From sequence record MN122072: a stretch of DNA of 52,288 nucleotides; one strand, written 5' to 3'. The position numbers and the translations under genes were made by a program. Shown piece after piece: positions 39,674 to 45,143 of this stretch. The number at the start of each line of letters is the position of its first letter. Position 1 is the stretch's first letter. The stretch comes from Escherichia phage vB_EcoM_Bp10. Below the pieces are notes generated by a model, which worked only from the letters and a program-made list of their open reading frames with translations, was not told the DNA's origin and ran no database searches.

Positions 39674-39932
39674 AGAACTGGCTGACCATCTTGAGGCAGC
39701 AAAACAAGAGCTTGCAACTCACTCAGAACGTGTAAAAACACTGAAAGAGCAAGGCTCAACGTCCGAAGAAATCCAGCTGTTCACAGACAATATCTGGTTT
39801 TCAATGAATCGTGCACAGTTTATCCAGATTCAGGAAGACCGCCTTGCTGAACTGGAAAAGCGTGTTGAAACACTCGAGAATTTACTTGCAACACTGCAAG
39901 AAACTTTGGACCAGGAGTTGAAAAATGTCTAA
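39663..39932 (+). CDS. hypothetical coiled-coil protein
   Basis: Heptad-like charged sequence throughout. Confidence 0.4.
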   Translation: MKVEELADHLEAAKQELATHSERVKTLKEQGSTSEEIQLFTDNIWFSMNRAQFIQIQEDRLAELEKRVETLENLLATLQETLDQELKNV

Positions 39933-40323
39933 CGTCAAACTGGGCCAACGTTCACTTGACCGACTCAAAGGTGTAAATCCTTCATTAGTAGCAGTTTTCA
40001 AGCGTGCATGTGAAACAATGCCGTTTGATATAACTGTTCTTGAAGGATTGCGCACTTATGAGCGTCAACAAGAGCTTTTAAAGCAAGGTGCAACCAAAGT
40101 TTCAGTTAGCCGACACATGTCAGGCAACGCTTTGGACATTGCGCCGTATCCAATTGACTGGAATGACCTCGAACGATTCCAAACTGTAGCTGAGCACATG
40201 TTCAAAGCCGCAGAAGAGATTGGAATTACTATTCGTTGGGGCGGGACATGGGAACGAACCTTCACTAAGCCAGTGAAATGGGCTAAGTTCCTTGATGCAC
40301 CACACTTCGAACTTCCGGCATAA
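39925..40323 (+). CDS. peptidase M15 family (L-alanyl-D-glutamate peptidase-like) lysin
   Basis: SRHMSGNALDI (His-x6-Asp) and DAPHFEL (second His) fit the zinc-binding motifs of the M15/VanY family. Confidence 0.7.
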   Translation: MSNVKLGQRSLDRLKGVNPSLVAVFKRACETMPFDITVLEGLRTYERQQELLKQGATKVSVSRHMSGNALDIAPYPIDWNDLERFQTVAEHMFKAAEEIGITIRWGGTWERTFTKPVKWAKFLDAPHFELPA

Positions 40324-40331
40324 CTTCATCA

Positions 40332-40622
40332 ATGGAGAATCCGATGAATTACGAAGATATTCCAAGAGAGTTAAATGCACTGGAGTCAAGAACCATCCGT
40401 GCAGAGAATATTCTCCACCAGCACCTATCAATTAACGTGGGTGATGAAAAGAAGATGCAGTACACTATGGAACTTGACGATGTAGTCTACACTGTCAGTT
40501 ACAACGAGAAGGCTGCTATCCTCAGTGCACTTATTAAAGGTGGGAATGAGCGAATCAATCAACTTAAGATTCTGGACACAGAATTGAGAGGTACTTGGGA
40601 GAAACTAAATGCAAAACACTAA
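40332..40622 (+). CDS. hypothetical protein
   Basis: ORF with AGGAGA-like RBS context (ATGGAGAATCCGATG). Confidence 0.4.
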   Translation: MENPMNYEDIPRELNALESRTIRAENILHQHLSINVGDEKKMQYTMELDDVVYTVSYNEKAAILSALIKGGNERINQLKILDTELRGTWEKLNAKH

Positions 40623-41157
40623 CATTATTCAAGCAGTAGAACAGCTTAAGTCCTGGCGTAGAGATGAAAATTTATTGGTTCGTTTCTACACAGGCGAAAC
40701 TAATTCTGAATTTGTAGATGCGTGGATTGATGGCCTGTCTTGGCGTCATTATGATTTCAACATGCGGGATTATTTGCATGAAGAATACGGCATTGAATAT
40801 CCAGAAGACGGTACATACGACATTCTGGAATCAAGCGAAGAAGACGTTACCGAAGTTTGCTTTGCCAATGGACTATTCAGCATTCGTAAATATGATAAGT
40901 TCAATGAGCTGCTCGTTGACACCGATTTGGATGTAATTCTTGCAGCATTCCGCAGTGGTGAGATTGATATTTTCACTGTAGACGATTTGAATGACAAGGT
41001 TATTGCTCTGTGTGATTCAATTGTGGATTACTTCAAAAACTACGAAGGAATAGAAGTTCCAGACCACCTTCGTCCATATATTGATTGGGATGCAATCGCC
41101 AGAGATTATGGAAGTGACTACATTTTCTCTGAGGGAATACTGTTCTTAAATGCGTGA
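40609..41157 (+). CDS. strongly acidic protein (about 40 Asp/Glu in 182 aa), DNA-mimic-like
   Basis: Hand count gives about 40 D/E against about 13 K/R; stretches like EEYGIEYPEDGTYDILESSEEDVTEV. Confidence 0.45.
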   Translation: MQNTNIIQAVEQLKSWRRDENLLVRFYTGETNSEFVDAWIDGLSWRHYDFNMRDYLHEEYGIEYPEDGTYDILESSEEDVTEVCFANGLFSIRKYDKFNELLVDTDLDVILAAFRSGEIDIFTVDDLNDKVIALCDSIVDYFKNYEGIEVPDHLRPYIDWDAIARDYGSDYIFSEGILFLNA

Positions 41158-41392
41158 TTTAAATATTGCTGAACTTGAGGCTGGATTGATTGTTCACCAC
41201 CAGCCTCGAAACACTTTCTATCGTATTCTTGGGCCTACAAAGATTAAAACTCACTGCGGAAGTTGGGTGGATGGGTTTGCTTACCAAGAAGTGAAGAAGT
41301 ACGGGGACCATACTTTCTTGAGTATTGATTCTTCTACTATCTACACACGACCGAAAGAGCTGTTTGATTCAGACTGGAAGGTTCTGGGATAG
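41150..41392 (+). CDS. hypothetical protein
   Basis: 80-aa ORF, last gene before the 0.86-kb ORF-free region. Confidence 0.4.
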   Translation: MRDLNIAELEAGLIVHHQPRNTFYRILGPTKIKTHCGSWVDGFAYQEVKKYGDHTFLSIDSSTIYTRPKELFDSDWKVLG

Positions 41393-41455
41393 TTCCAAGC
41401 TGTTCCGTCGAAGTGCCAAGCGGGTTTTGTGCTCGCATTGGCCTTCGGCTTTAGT

Positions 41456-41480
41456 CTGAAACATTAGTGGGATTTGATTC
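41456..41480 (+). promoter_or_regulatory. copy of conserved motif, candidate phage promoter
   Basis: tctgaaACATTAGTgGGATtTGatt. Confidence 0.4.
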
Positions 41481-41595
41481 GGACCACTTAGGGAAGAAAG
41501 GCATTATACACTTATCGCCAAATGGGTGTCAAGCACTTTCTTCATTTATTTTAATTTATTCTTATTATTCTTTTTGTTTGGAATATTGGAATAAT

Positions 41596-41620
41596 TCTGA
41601 AACATTAGTTGGAATTGAAG
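41596..41620 (+). promoter_or_regulatory. copy of conserved motif, candidate phage promoter
   Basis: tctgaaACATTAGTTGGAaTTGaag; 20 bp upstream of a tRNA-like minihelix. Confidence 0.4.
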
Positions 41621-41639
41621 AGACAACATCAGATAAGAG

Positions 41640-41704
41640 CTTTGTAACTAGGTAGTCCGTCTGGTACCAGGGCGTGTGAGAACGTTCGATTCGTTCTACA
41701 AAGT
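41640..41704 (+). ncRNA. tRNA-like element (perfect 7-bp acceptor stem plus T-arm, shortened body)
   Basis: CTTTGTA (41640-46) pairs with TACAAAG (41697-703); adjacent T-arm GAACG-TTCGATT-CGTTC (41680-96); body about 8 nt too short for canonical D and anticodon arms. Confidence 0.3.
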
Positions 41705-42256
41705 TCTTTTCGATGGAATGTTTCCATCAAATACATTTATCTTTTAACATAGGCCAAAGGGCCGGAATACTTCTTCGCAGAAAGCTGTTCACTTGTTATA
41801 GCGATGTATTGGGATGAATTGGTACTAAATAAGCAAGCTGTTAGGGCTGAATAATTAGAGGGTAGTGCCTCATGCTTATGTTAGTCATTCGAAAATAGGT
41901 TTGTGCCACAAGCTGCTGGTGCTCCGAGGAAGTCGGACAAACAGGGCTTAGAGTGGCATAATCCGCACAAAACCGCGCCACCAGCTATGCCAAAGCAGGT
42001 AGGTTGGGTGAATGTATTGGGAAGGGTTGCAAAGCCTCTGTGACACGCCTGAGCCGCAAGGCGACAACACTCATGTGATTAGCGTATCGCACCCTAACGG
42101 GAGTAACTCTTCACCAATGCAGTTATCCAGAATTGACACAAACGGTAGGCAGTGGCCCGATTTTCGGCCTTCCTGCGCTACTCTGTGGCCTGTTTTACCA
42201 GGCTAAAAGATGAGAAGAGAAGTCACAAACACTGAATCGAAAATTGGAGAGTTCCT

Positions 42257-44580: not shown

Positions 44581-45019
44581 CAGTTGGATATTTCTAGAGG
44601 ACGGACGAGCACACTGGAATGTCTTCAATTGGTTTAGTGTGAGAAGCTATGGCAATTTGAAACGTAACTCCTTGGGGAAGTGCTCCTCTGGATTTCCCTC
44701 CACACAGGAATCTCAAGCCTGTGGCAGCGACTTCGAAGCTGCACTGCGTAACCTAAATTCACCCTAAAGTGAGTTGCCCTGAGTATGGAAATAAACTGCT
44801 CATAACCGATGGTATCTACAAAGGTAGATTAAATCAGGTTGCCTGTTGGTACTTGGGTTCAACACCTGCTTGCACTCGCAAAGTAGTGCCTCGTACCTGA
44901 GATGAAGTGAGTCGGGACCATCAATCCCACGTTATGCCAAAACATAGTAGGCGGCTCACAGATTCTACAAGCCTCGCAGTTCGGGAAAACCTGCGTTATC
45001 AAAACCCCCTTTTTTATTT

Positions 45020-45113
45020 GGACGAGTAGCTCAGAAGGTTTGCATTGTGCTCAGTCAGGTAGAGCAATCTGTTCGACAGATGTGTCGTTGGTTCGAATCC
45101 AACCTCGTCCACC
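45020..45113 (+). tRNA. tRNA-like gene, non-canonical (duplicated D-arm 5' segment, 5-nt anticodon loop)
   Basis: GGACGAG (45020-26) pairs with CTCGTCC (45104-10); T-arm GTTGG-TTCGAAT-CCAAC (45087-103); canonical D-arm GCTCAGTCAGGTAGAGC (45049-65) preceded by an extra TAGCTCAGAAGG; anticodon stem ATCTG/CAGAT has a 5-nt loop. Confidence 0.35.
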
Positions 45114-45143
45114 CACTTTAATAATAGCAATACTGGAGTCCTT

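What the first reader, a model, noticed from the sequence alone, without database searches (positions are those of the whole stretch)
40609..41157. Strongly acidic 182-aa early protein: candidate DNA mimic or anti-restriction factor
By hand count the protein has about 40 Asp/Glu against about 13 Lys/Arg, a charge profile like Ocr or ArdA. It sits in the early-gene block, where anti-defence genes usually cluster. No sequence similarity to known mimics is claimed.
Basis: inference. Interest (0 to 1): 0.5.

Follow-up and report, generated by a model that had tools for sequence, protein, structure and literature searches.

The report
ArdA-like anti-restriction protein of a coliphage
The very acidic 182-residue protein is a divergent member of the ArdA family of DNA-mimicking proteins that switch off bacterial type I restriction enzymes. 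The same gene is already labelled "antirestriction protein" in related phages, so the finding is correct but ordinary.

Summary
The ORF is real: 40609-41157 on the + strand, 182 aa, 40 Asp/Glu against 14 Lys/Arg, pI 4.1. It is the most acidic of 73 ORFs in the window.

The window is a Carltongylesvirus genome (Chaseviridae, phiEcoM-GJ1-like). The gene is the orthologue of phiEcoM-GJ1 gp22, which public records annotate as "anti-restriction protein". It matches PHROG 14321 (anti-restriction) at E 1.6e-52.

- Pfam ArdA scores only 19.7 bits on this protein, below the 27-bit cut-off. Three orthologues tested from other Chaseviridae-like phages (two shown syntenic) pass it.
- A clade-only profile aligns to bona fide ArdAs with hhalign probability 98.8% (E 8e-17).
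- The dimer-interface "anti-restriction motif" (E149 V150 P151, L154, Y157 I158 D159, R165 D166) and the VF-like motif (L178 F179) are conserved.

The most likely function is a dimeric DNA mimic that blocks the DNA groove of type I restriction-modification enzymes. This is inferred, not tested.

The caveat is timing: the gene lies about 10 kb from the genome's left end, behind phage-polymerase promoters, not first-in like T7 ocr.

Interest is low.

The parts
40609..41157 (+). CDS of the ArdA-like anti-restriction protein (182 aa plus stop). It is the orthologue of phiEcoM-GJ1 gp22.
   Evidence: ORF. Composition. PHROG 14321 at E 1.6e-52. Annotated orthologues. hhalign probability 98.8% to ArdA. 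Fold match to 2W82.
40592..40597 (+). Shine-Dalgarno sequence (GGGAG region), 7 nt before the ATG. It lies inside the 3' end of the upstream 96-aa ORF.
   Evidence: Read directly from the sequence. The same ribosome-binding site is listed for ST32 gene 26 in PMC6266442.
40609..40668 (+). Residues 1-20: an N-terminal helix (residues 4-15) with no counterpart in canonical ArdA. It carries no net charge.
   Evidence: AF2 secondary structure, pLDDT 72-78. The hhalign match to ArdA starts at residue 32. Charge by segment.
40669..40836 (+). Residues about 21-76: equivalent of ArdA domain 1. It has a three-stranded sheet (22-27, 35-40, 69-75) plus short helices, including the conserved WIDG segment (W39-G42).
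   Evidence: AF2 model. ArdA domain description in PMC2731889. The AWIDG/GAW.D alignment to ArdA.
40837..40998 (+). Residues about 77-130: equivalent of ArdA domain 2, a helical bundle (helices 78-84, 92-102, 107-116, 127-130). I121/F122 sit at the position of the essential F91 of Tn916 ArdA.
   Evidence: AF2 model. Alignments. PMC2731889.
40999..41154 (+). Residues about 131-182: equivalent of ArdA domain 3, the dimerisation domain. It has three strands and three helices. It holds the anti-restriction motif E149-V150-P151...L154...Y157-I158-D159...R165-D166 and the VF-like motif L178-F179.
   Evidence: HMMER alignment to 2w82. MAFFT mapping to Tn916 numbering. BLASTP to the functional plasmid ArdA WP_000129958.1. 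Weak tblastn hits fall inside plasmid ardA genes. Role of the residues from PMC2731889.
37542..37561 (+). Nearest upstream match to the phiEcoM-GJ1 phage-RNA-polymerase promoter consensus (16 of 20). It is positionally equivalent to GJ1 'phage promoter 3' and is the probable promoter of the SSB-to-ArdA-like gene string.
   Evidence: Consensus scan. GJ1 and SA91KD annotation. That this promoter drives the ArdA-like gene is an inference.
41407..41450 (+). Strong hairpin just after the next ORF (41150-41392). It probably marks the end of the transcription unit.
   Evidence: Folding gives dG -30.4 kcal/mol, z = -4.4. SA91KD has a terminator annotated at the same place.

Best explanation
The gene encodes a divergent, phage-borne member of the ArdA family.

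Like ArdA of Tn916 or ColIb-P9, the protein would fold into three small domains in a row and dimerise head-to-head through the C-terminal domain. The conserved Y157-I158-D159/D166/L154 motif would form that interface. The dimer would present helical ribbons of Asp/Glu that imitate about 40 bp of bent B-DNA.

The dimer would occupy the DNA-binding groove of the HsdM2-HsdS core of type I restriction-modification enzymes such as EcoKI, EcoBI, EcoAI and EcoR124I. Unmodified phage DNA would then be neither cut nor methylated.

What is shown here:
- the ORF and its charge;
- its conservation and purifying selection;
- homology and fold similarity to ArdA;
- conservation of the structural motifs;
- the presence of ordinary numbers of type I target sites in the phage genome.

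What is inferred: dimerisation, the DNA-like surface, binding to HsdMS, the in vivo effect, and the time of expression.
For: **Orthology to annotated genes**
- The protein is 79-91% identical to proteins labelled (putative) antirestriction protein in flopper, ST32, SA91KD, Mangalitsa, PYps16N and phiEcoM-GJ1 gp22.
- PHROG 14321 'anti-restriction protein' matches at E 1.6e-52 over residues 1-181.

**Homology to ArdA**
- Pfam PF07275 gives 19.7 bits on this protein.
- The same model gives 31-35 bits, above the 27-bit cut-off, on the orthologues of phiA050, 4HA13 and PP101; synteny is shown for the last two.
- An exhaustive HMM search with the clade profile found 41 clusters. Of the 37 aligned sequences scanned (the window protein and 36 of those hits), 29 are Pfam ArdA, with best E 1.2e-33.
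- hhalign of the Carltongylesvirus-only profile against seven bona fide ArdAs gives probability 98.8%, E 8e-17, over 142 columns (query 32-182).
- Family profiles searched against the PDB return ArdA 2w82 as the best hit, with E 0.046, 0.035 and 3.7e-5 as the profile widens.

**Fold**
- The AF2 model has pLDDT 89.7 and pTM 0.81.
- Foldseek against the PDB gives one significant hit, 2w82_B: E 6.2e-5, TM 0.55/0.61, 178 columns.
- The secondary-structure order matches the published ArdA domains: three-stranded sheet, then helical bundle, then three strands with three helices.
- BFVD top hits are phage 'antirestriction proteins'.

**Motifs**
- E129, V130, P131, L134, Y137, I138, D139, R145 and D146 of Tn916 ArdA correspond to identical residues 149-166 in the window protein.
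- F91 corresponds to I121/F122, and the VF motif to L178-F179 (roles from PMC2731889).

**Charge**
- Net charge is -26 and pI 4.09. The family ranges from -17 to -29 and canonical ArdAs from -23 to -33.

**Need for such a function**
- The genome carries EcoKI, EcoBI, EcoAI and EcoR124I sites at 4, 12, 9 and 18 copies. Chance expectation is 8.0, 11.3, 6.7 and 10.1, so there is no significant site avoidance (only EcoKI is nominally low).

**Selection**
- dN/dS is 0.12-0.24.
- The gene is the most diverged in its neighbourhood against the closest relative: Bp7 is 88.8% nt identical here and 97.6-100% in the flanking ORFs. This fits an arms-race gene.
Against: - No activity has been measured for any member of this phage clade. 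All 'antirestriction' labels are by similarity.
- The protein itself is below Pfam's ArdA gathering score (19.7 against 27). NCBIfam returns nothing.
- Pairwise similarity to a functionally tested ArdA is limited to 32 C-terminal residues (34% identity, E 0.018).
- The bona fide ArdAs used for hhalign were chosen because they had already matched the clade profile, which flatters the E-value.
- Of the seven acidic residues that carry the charge pattern across the Tn916 dimer interface (D109, D111, D112, D115, E122, E123, E129), only E129 maps unambiguously (to E149).
- The helix before the motif is about 6 residues shorter than in other Chaseviridae orthologues, and its alignment is uncertain.
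- I could not inspect model coordinates, so the DNA-like surface and the dimer are not verified.
- The gene is about 10 kb from the left genome end, downstream of phage-polymerase promoters. It would therefore be made later than T7 Ocr or plasmid ArdA.
Confidence: 0.8

Rival explanations
1. The protein is an ArdA homologue and DNA mimic, but its main target in this phage is not classical type I restriction. It might instead inhibit another DNA-binding host factor or defence: a type ISP or type III enzyme, a BREX-like methyltransferase, H-NS-type nucleoid proteins, or RecBCD-like nucleases. It might also have diverged mainly to escape decoy systems that sense ArdA.
For: - Its sequence is very far from tested ArdAs, and it has an extra N-terminal helix.
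- Several of the acidic residues conserved across the ArdA dimer interface are not clearly retained.
- Expression from a phage-polymerase promoter about 10 kb into the genome looks late for protecting incoming DNA.
- DNA mimics can have several targets: Ocr also blocks BREX (PMC7261183).
- ArdA is sensed by the Ronin decoy system, which gives a selective reason to diverge (bioRxiv 10.1101/2023.04.06.535777).
Against: - Domains 2 and 3 suffice for anti-restriction in ColIb-P9 ArdA (PMC2731889). These are the best conserved parts here.
- ColIb-P9 ArdA did not inhibit BREX.
- All six ArdAs tested by McMahon et al., though very different in sequence, were active on type I systems.
- The genome does carry type I sites.
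Confidence: 0.14
2. The acidity is incidental. The protein is an ordinary phage protein such as a chaperone, a scaffold, a tail-fibre-related protein or a replication inhibitor, as a few records label its orthologues. The ArdA resemblance would then carry no functional meaning.
For: Orthologues are labelled 'tail fiber protein' in MLP1 and PYps3T/4T/16T/23T, and 'replication inhibitor protein' in Pel53. The window protein alone does not reach Pfam's threshold.
Against: - Those labels have no support. No tail-fibre or replication family was hit in Pfam, PHROGs or by fold search.
- The gene lies among early/middle genes, far from the structural module at 1-30270.
- Four independent lines link it to ArdA: profile-profile comparison, transitive HMM hits, fold, and motif.
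- The negative charge is conserved down to 25% identity.
Confidence: 0.04

Closest known systems
phiEcoM-GJ1 gp22 (YP_001595417) and its orthologues in Carltongylesvirus and other Chaseviridae; PHROG 14321 'anti-restriction protein'
   Same: - Same gene: 79-91% identity within the genus, and the same length.
- Same position in the string endolysin, small ORF, this gene, small ORF, non-coding stretch.
- Full-length PHROG match at E 1.6e-52.
   Different: - This allele is not identical to any deposited one. The best protein match is 91% (flopper); the closest genome in this region, Bp7, is 86% identical at protein level and 88.8% at nucleotide level here, although its flanking ORFs are 97.6-100% identical.
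- None of these orthologues has been tested experimentally, as far as the library searched shows.
ArdA of conjugative transposon Tn916 (ORF18; PDB 2W82; complexes 7BTO/7BTR) - Pfam PF07275
   Same: - Three-domain alpha/beta architecture in the same order.
- Identical residues at E129, V130, P131, L134, Y137, I138, D139, R145 and D146 (Tn916 numbering), and a VF-type motif at the C-terminus.
- Similar size and net charge.
   Different: - About 17-20% identity.
- Below the Pfam gathering score.
- An extra N-terminal helix of about 20 residues.
- The helix before the interface motif is shortened, and most of the D109-E123 acidic positions are not clearly conserved.
- It is encoded by a virulent phage rather than a conjugative element, and is probably transcribed by a phage single-subunit RNA polymerase rather than from a leading-region promoter.
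Enterobacterial plasmid ArdA (ColIb-P9 type; WP_000129958.1, shown to relieve type I restriction in E. coli MG1655)
   Same: The C-terminal segment EIPxxxxxYxDxxAxARDxxxxDxxxxxGxxF aligns at 34% identity over 32 residues. The weak tblastn hits in 1,585 plasmid records that are listed fall almost all inside genes annotated ardA.
   Different: No detectable pairwise similarity outside that segment. The genetic context is different.
Ocr (gene 0.3 protein) of phage T7
   Same: It works alike in principle: a small, very acidic (pI about 4), dimeric DNA mimic of a virulent coliphage that encodes its own single-subunit RNA polymerase, and that blocks type I restriction-modification enzymes. This comparison is by analogy; the Ocr facts come from PMC3439906 and PMC2731889.
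   Different: - Not homologous: no Pfam Ocr hit and no Ocr structure among the fold matches.
- Ocr is all-helical, 116 aa, and mimics about 24 bp. ArdA mimics about 42 bp.
- ocr is the first gene to enter the cell and is transcribed by host polymerase. This gene lies about 10 kb in, behind phage-type promoters.

Membership tests
ArdA (Pfam PF07275) | Scores above the curated Pfam gathering threshold (27 bits). This is an operational criterion. | tested here: not met
   - The window protein scores 19.7 bits, E 0.0014, over residues 98-171 against profile positions 87-145.
- Orthologues in phiA050, 4HA13 and PP101 score 34.9, 33.8 and 31.4 bits.
- The threshold is a curation cut-off, not a biological property. 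The other rows decide membership.
ArdA (Pfam PF07275) | Statistically supported homology to bona fide ArdA sequences over most of the length. | tested here: met
   - hhalign of the Carltongylesvirus-only profile A1 against seven proteins scoring 58-117 bits on PF07275 gives probability 98.8%, E 8e-17, query 32-182 against template 15-164.
- 29 of the 37 aligned sequences scanned (the window protein plus 36 exhaustive HMM hits) are Pfam ArdA.
- Caveat: the ArdAs were pre-selected by similarity to the query profile.
ArdA (Pfam PF07275) | Three domains in a row: a three-stranded sheet with a short helix; a helical bundle; three strands with three helices (PMC2731889). | tested here: met
   - AF2 model, pLDDT 89.7, with elements E22-27, E35-40, H42-46, H52-60, E69-75 | H78-84, H92-102, H107-116, H127-130 | E131-134, H138-144, H152-157, H160-170, E171-174, E177-180.
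- Foldseek match to 2w82_B at E 6.2e-5, TM 0.55/0.61.
- This is a predicted, not solved, structure.
ArdA (Pfam PF07275) | The 'anti-restriction motif' at the dimer interface (Tn916 residues 126-140, with Y137, I138, L134, D139, D146). | tested here: met
   E149, V150, P151, L154, Y157, I158, D159, R165 and D166 align to identical Tn916 residues 129-146. P151, Y157 and D159 are invariant in the genus alignment, and I158 and D159 in the wider one.
ArdA (Pfam PF07275) | C-terminal VF motif (I160-F161 in Tn916) and an aromatic residue at F91 holding domains 2 and 3 together. | tested here: met
   - G176-I177-L178-F179 aligns with the G-(H/Y)-V-F of canonical ArdAs.
- G176 and F179 are invariant or nearly so in all family alignments.
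- F91 maps to I121, next to the invariant F122. This is a conservative, not identical, match.
ArdA (Pfam PF07275) | High density of surface Asp/Glu, low pI, with the charge pattern continuing across the dimer interface (D109, D111, D112, D115, E122, E123, E129). | tested here: inconclusive
   - The overall charge criterion is met: net -26, pI 4.09, with all three domains acidic.
- Of the seven interface-spanning acidic positions, only E129 maps unambiguously (to E149).
- HMMER pairs D111/D115 with D136/D140, but MAFFT does not.
ArdA (Pfam PF07275) | Homodimer that mimics about 42 bp of DNA. | not testable with these tools
   The structure tool predicts single chains only and returns no coordinates or contact maps.
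ArdA (Pfam PF07275) | Relieves restriction (and often modification) by type I R-M systems in vivo, and binds the HsdM2S methyltransferase core. | not testable with these tools
   No experimental report for any Chaseviridae orthologue was found in the literature searches.
Ocr (T7 gp0.3 family) | Sequence or fold similarity to Ocr. | tested here: not met

The most novel reading that the evidence does not exclude
The Chaseviridae ArdA-like clade could be a re-tuned DNA mimic. It has an added N-terminal helix and a shortened pre-interface helix, it diversifies quickly between near-identical genomes, and it is expressed from phage-polymerase promoters about 10 kb into the genome. It might have shifted its specificity in one of two ways: towards defence proteins other than classical type I enzymes, or towards evading decoy or abortive-infection systems such as Ronin or PARIS that detect ArdA or Ocr while still blocking HsdMS.
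Probability: 0.12. Interest if true: 0.45.

Novelty: already known. Interest (0 to 1): 0.12.

Why it matters
The finding matters little beyond correct annotation.

- It confirms that charge-based reading of raw sequence can pick out a real anti-defence gene.
- It puts the long-standing by-similarity label 'antirestriction protein' of phiEcoM-GJ1-like phages on firmer ground, through profile, fold and motif evidence.
- It corrects the mislabels 'tail fiber protein' and 'replication inhibitor protein' in several public records.
- For phage-therapy candidates of this genus, which have a broad E. coli host range, an active ArdA would help explain tolerance of type I restriction barriers.
- The clade would be a useful, very divergent test case for which ArdA residues are really needed for mimicry.

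Tried and rejected
- **Single sequence against PDB sequences.** This gave no ArdA hit, only noise: LPXTG protein and amidase, E above 0.6.
- **Genus-only profile against the PDB.** The best hits were archaeal PriL at E 0.07, judged spurious. They disappeared with wider profiles, which put ArdA first.
- **Ocr-type or other mimics (Arn, Gam, ArdB/KlcA).** No family or fold hits.
- **The 'tail fiber' and 'replication inhibitor' annotations of orthologues.** No supporting evidence in any search.
- **NCBIfam.** No model matches.
- **Avoidance of type I target sites as an alternative protection strategy.** None found. EcoKI has 4 sites against 8 expected, which is not significant. EcoR124I sites are if anything enriched, 18 against 10.
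- **AlphaFold-database fold search.** The library was unavailable.
- **The phiEcoM-GJ1 genome paper.** It is not in the held library, so the basis of the original gp22 annotation is known only from the GenBank note 'similar to NP_511210 and NP_857871'.
- **Transcription-timing data for Chaseviridae.** None found.
- **A linker-fused dimer prediction.** Considered, but not run. The tool returns no coordinates or contacts, so the interface could not have been judged.
Full report
**Observation**

The window has an ATG ORF at 40609-41157 on the + strand, 182 aa. Exact counts are 23 Asp + 17 Glu = 40 acidic residues and 5 Lys + 9 Arg = 14 basic residues. That gives net charge -26, pI 4.09 and 21.4 kDa.

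Among 73 non-overlapping + strand ORFs of at least 60 aa, it has the highest net acidic fraction: 0.143 against a mean of 0.007 (z = 2.4). Acidic residues are spread over the whole chain except the first 20 residues.

Several features show it is a real gene:
- A GGGAG ribosome-binding site lies 7 nt upstream of the ATG.
- The ORF overlaps the stop of the upstream 96-aa ORF by 14 nt. Its own stop overlaps the start of the next ORF (ATGCGTGA).
- dN/dS against four relatives is 0.12-0.24.

**What the window is**

The region 39900-41500 is 94% identical at nucleotide level to Escherichia phage vB_EcoP_Bp7, 93% to flopper, and 79-92% to other members of Carltongylesvirus (Chaseviridae, Cleopatravirinae). 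This is the phiEcoM-GJ1 group: myoviruses that encode a T7-like single-subunit RNA polymerase (PMC7552041). All long ORFs with any functional or homology assignment are on the + strand.

Relative to phiEcoM-GJ1 the window is circularly permuted. The RNA polymerase ORF is at 30916-33102, so the finding lies about 9.7 kb downstream of it, where GJ1 has gp22.

**Orthologues and their labels**

tblastn finds full-length homologues in 52 phage records:
- 79-91% identical in most Carltongylesvirus-like genomes;
- 59% in three TH phages;
- 26-37% in Faunus, phiA050, 4HA13, PP101 and Okapia.

Where annotation is available, they sit in the same string of genes: endolysin, small ORF, this gene, small ORF, then a long non-coding stretch.

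Most records call the protein '(putative) antirestriction protein'. A few records call it 'tail fiber protein' or 'replication inhibitor protein'. Nothing found here supports those labels. PHROG 14321 ('anti-restriction protein') matches over residues 1-181 at E 1.6e-52.

**Is it really an ArdA?**

*Evidence from sequence*

On its own the protein is a borderline case:
- Pfam PF07275 (ArdA) scores 19.7 bits against a cut-off of 27, and covers only residues 98-171.
- NCBIfam has no match.
- The sequence alone finds nothing in the PDB.
- BLASTP against a functionally validated plasmid ArdA (WP_000129958.1, the control used in bioRxiv 10.1101/2023.04.06.535777) aligns only 32 C-terminal residues at 34% identity, E 0.018.

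The link becomes solid when relatives are used:
- (i) The orthologues of phiA050, 4HA13 and PP101 exceed the Pfam cut-off, at 34.9, 33.8 and 31.4 bits.
- (ii) An exhaustive HMM search of 1.84 billion representative proteins with the genus profile found only 41 clusters. Of the 37 aligned sequences scanned (the window protein and 36 of those hits), 29 are Pfam ArdA, with best E 1.2e-33.
- (iii) hhalign of the genus-only profile, none of whose tested members (the window protein, P0047 and P0048) reaches the Pfam cut-off, against seven of those bona fide ArdAs gives probability 98.8%, E 8e-17. It aligns 142 columns: query 32-182 against template 15-164 of 167. Because these ArdAs were pre-selected by similarity to the query, the E-value is optimistic. 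Their identity as ArdAs is not in doubt (58-117 bits).
- (iv) Family profiles searched against PDB sequences return ArdA of Tn916 (2w82; also 7bto and 7btr) as the top hit. E improves from 0.046 to 0.035 to 3.7e-5 as the profile widens.
- (v) tblastn against 72,556 plasmids gives only weak hits (E about 0.6, residues 149-181, 53% identity). The listed hits fall almost all inside genes annotated ardA.

*Evidence from predicted structure*

An AlphaFold2 model was built from a 21-sequence alignment. It has mean pLDDT 89.7 and pTM 0.81.
- Foldseek against the PDB gives one significant hit, 2w82_B: E 6.2e-5, probability 1.00, TM 0.55/0.61, 178 aligned columns. Every other hit has E above 1.
- In the viral structure library the best matches are 'antirestriction proteins' of 4HA13, Pantoea phage SSEM1, Proteus phage Myduc and others.

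The order of secondary-structure elements matches the published ArdA monomer (PMC2731889):

| ArdA domain | Published description | Elements in the model |
|---|---|---|
| 1 | Three-stranded sheet and short helix | Strands 22-27, 35-40, 69-75; short helices |
| 2 | Four-helix bundle | Helices 78-84, 92-102, 107-116, 127-130 |
| 3 | Three strands and three helices | Strands 131-134, 171-174, 177-180; helices 138-144, 152-157, 160-170 |

Residues 1-20 form an extra helix with lower confidence. It has no ArdA counterpart.

*Motifs*

I rebuilt residues 2-158 of the 2w82 chain from the printed HMMER alignments. The numbering reproduces every residue named by McMahon et al.. Mapped this way, the 'anti-restriction motif' that forms the ArdA dimer interface is conserved residue for residue:

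| Tn916 ArdA | Window protein |
|---|---|
| E129 | E149 |
| V130 | V150 |
| P131 | P151 |
| L134 | L154 |
| Y137 | Y157 |
| I138 | I158 |
| D139 | D159 |
| R145 | R165 |
| D146 | D166 |

Sources for this mapping are; the roles of these residues come from PMC2731889.

Two further points of agreement:
- The essential VF motif corresponds to L178-F179, which follow the invariant G176.
- F91 corresponds to I121, next to the invariant F122.

One region is less clear. The acidic residues that carry the charge ribbon across the Tn916 interface are D109, D111, D112, D115, E122 and E123. The helix that holds them is about six residues shorter here than in other Chaseviridae orthologues, and the two alignment methods disagree on its register.

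Overall charge is conserved. The phage family has net charge -17 to -29, and canonical ArdAs -23 to -33.

I therefore file the protein as a divergent ArdA-family member, and not as an Ocr relative. No Ocr hit appears by sequence or by fold.

**Mechanism**

From the established ArdA work, ArdA is a head-to-head dimer that mimics about 42 bp of bent B-DNA. Domains 2 and 3 fill the DNA groove of the HsdM2S methyltransferase core, and domain 1 reaches towards HsdR. Domain 1 is dispensable for anti-restriction (PMC2731889).

The best-conserved parts of the phage protein are exactly domains 2 and 3. The simplest reading is that it does the same thing: it sequesters type I R-M enzymes so that unmodified phage DNA is not cut.

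The genome offers targets for those enzymes:

| Enzyme | Sites found | Expected by chance |
|---|---|---|
| EcoKI | 4 | 8.0 |
| EcoBI | 12 | 11.3 |
| EcoAI | 9 | 6.7 |
| EcoR124I | 18 | 10.1 |

The phage therefore does not rely on site avoidance.

The gene is also the most variable in its neighbourhood. Against Bp7 it is 88.8% identical at nucleotide level, while the two flanking ORFs are 97.6% and 100% identical. That is the pattern expected of an arms-race gene exchanged between genomes.

All mechanistic steps beyond homology are inferences: dimer formation, a DNA-like surface, HsdMS binding and an in vivo effect.

**Caveat on timing**

It does lie among the small genes between the RNA polymerase gene and the replication genes. 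However, the nearest upstream promoter-like site is a phage-polymerase promoter match at 37542 (16 of 20 to the GJ1 consensus; the equivalent of GJ1 promoter 3). That site heads a string of SSB, several small ORFs, the endolysin, a 96-aa ORF, the ArdA-like gene and an 80-aa ORF. The string ends at a strong hairpin at 41407-41450 (dG -30.4 kcal/mol, z = -4.4).

The protein would therefore be made only after the phage polymerase, later than T7 Ocr or plasmid ArdA. No transcription data for this family were found.

This is the main reason to keep a rival open: an ArdA-like mimic with a shifted or additional target, or one that has diverged to escape systems that sense ArdA, such as Ronin. ColIb-P9 ArdA does not inhibit E. 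coli BREX (PMC7261183), so BREX is not the first place to look.

**Novelty and verdict**

The gene and its putative function are already in public annotation: GJ1 gp22, PHROG 14321 and many RefSeq records. What is added here is firmer evidence that the label is right, a residue-level map onto ArdA, and correction of a few wrong labels.

This is an ordinary, correctly guessed anti-restriction gene, so interest is low.

**Side observation: the stretch downstream of the gene**

The ORF-poor stretch just downstream (41393-42256) looks more unusual than the finding itself.
- It is better conserved than the neighbouring coding DNA.
- It holds two tandem phage promoters around an A+T-rich, repeat-bearing segment.
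- It carries a perfect sigma-70 consensus promoter on the otherwise gene-less minus strand. The hexamers and their spacing are invariant across four genera.
- The roughly 640 nt downstream fold unusually well and match no Rfam family.

It may be a replication origin, a structured RNA, or both. I did not pursue it further.

Noticed in passing
window 41393-42256: An ORF-poor stretch of about 860 bp lies directly after the ArdA-like operon. It is more conserved than the adjacent coding DNA: 98.0 against 94.2% to Bp7, and 92.7 against 79.2% to PYps3T. Blocks align even to other genera (4HA13, phiA050, Faunus). It contains two tandem phage-polymerase promoter matches (41459, 41600) that flank an A+T-rich segment with GGAATAWT repeats. 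That layout is like the T7 primary origin (my own knowledge), so this is a candidate replication origin. GJ1 annotates a doubtful 'SbcC exonuclease' ORF here.
   Followed up: partly
window 41532..41503 (minus strand): A perfect sigma-70 consensus promoter (TTGACA-N18-TATAAT, 12 of 12) points leftwards in a genome whose genes are all on the + strand. Both hexamers and the spacing are invariant in Carltongylesvirus, 4HA13, phiA050 and Faunus, while the spacer sequence varies (alignment A6). It could make an early host-polymerase transcript: a primer, or an RNA antisense to the end of the ArdA-like operon.
   Followed up: partly
window 41620-42256: The region downstream of the phage promoter at 41600 folds much better than shuffles (-208.5 kcal/mol, z = -3.8, 20 shuffles). 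It contains elements invariant across genera, for example the hairpin GATGGAATGTTTCCATC at about 41703-41719 and the block GGGCTGAATAATT at about 41847-41859. No Rfam family matches. It is a candidate structured non-coding RNA. Covariation was not tested.
   Followed up: partly
window 40609-41157 versus flanks 40332-40622 and 41150-41392: There is a mosaic pattern against the closest genome, Bp7. The ArdA-like gene is 88.8% identical at nucleotide level (86% at protein level), while the ORFs on either side are 97.6% and 100% identical. This suggests allele exchange or a diversity hotspot at this gene.
   Followed up: partly
window 40332-40622: A 96-aa ORF overlaps the start of the ArdA-like gene and has no Pfam or PHROG match. 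It is present in SA91KD, flopper, Bp7, Faunus, 4HA13 and PP101 as an ORF of about 90 aa, but is absent from phiEcoM-GJ1, where the endolysin is followed directly by gp22.
   Followed up: no
window 39925-40323: The endolysin (M15 peptidase, L-alanyl-D-glutamate peptidase type) sits in the early/middle gene string behind the SSB gene. It is separated from the anti-restriction gene only by the 96-aa ORF and is far from the structural module. This arrangement is conserved across the family.
   Followed up: no
window 45019-45115: The single tRNA gene is unusually long at 97 nt. ARAGORN calls it tRNA-Leu (CAG), whereas the phiEcoM-GJ1 record annotates its single tRNA gene as tRNA-Arg, 'may contain an intron'.
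   Followed up: no
public records MLP1, PYps3T/4T/16T/23T, Pel53 (hits H46-H56): Orthologues of the ArdA-like protein are mislabelled 'tail fiber protein' or 'replication inhibitor protein'. 'Staphylococcus phage Pel53' (host given as S. hyicus) is a Carltongylesvirus-like genome whose protein is about 80% identical to this E. coli phage protein, so the host label looks doubtful.
   Followed up: no
window, whole: EcoR124I sites (GAAN6RTCG) number 18 against 10.1 expected; only 2 of 100 shuffles reach 18. EcoKI sites number 4 against 8.0 expected, which is not significant. This is probably noise.
   Followed up: no
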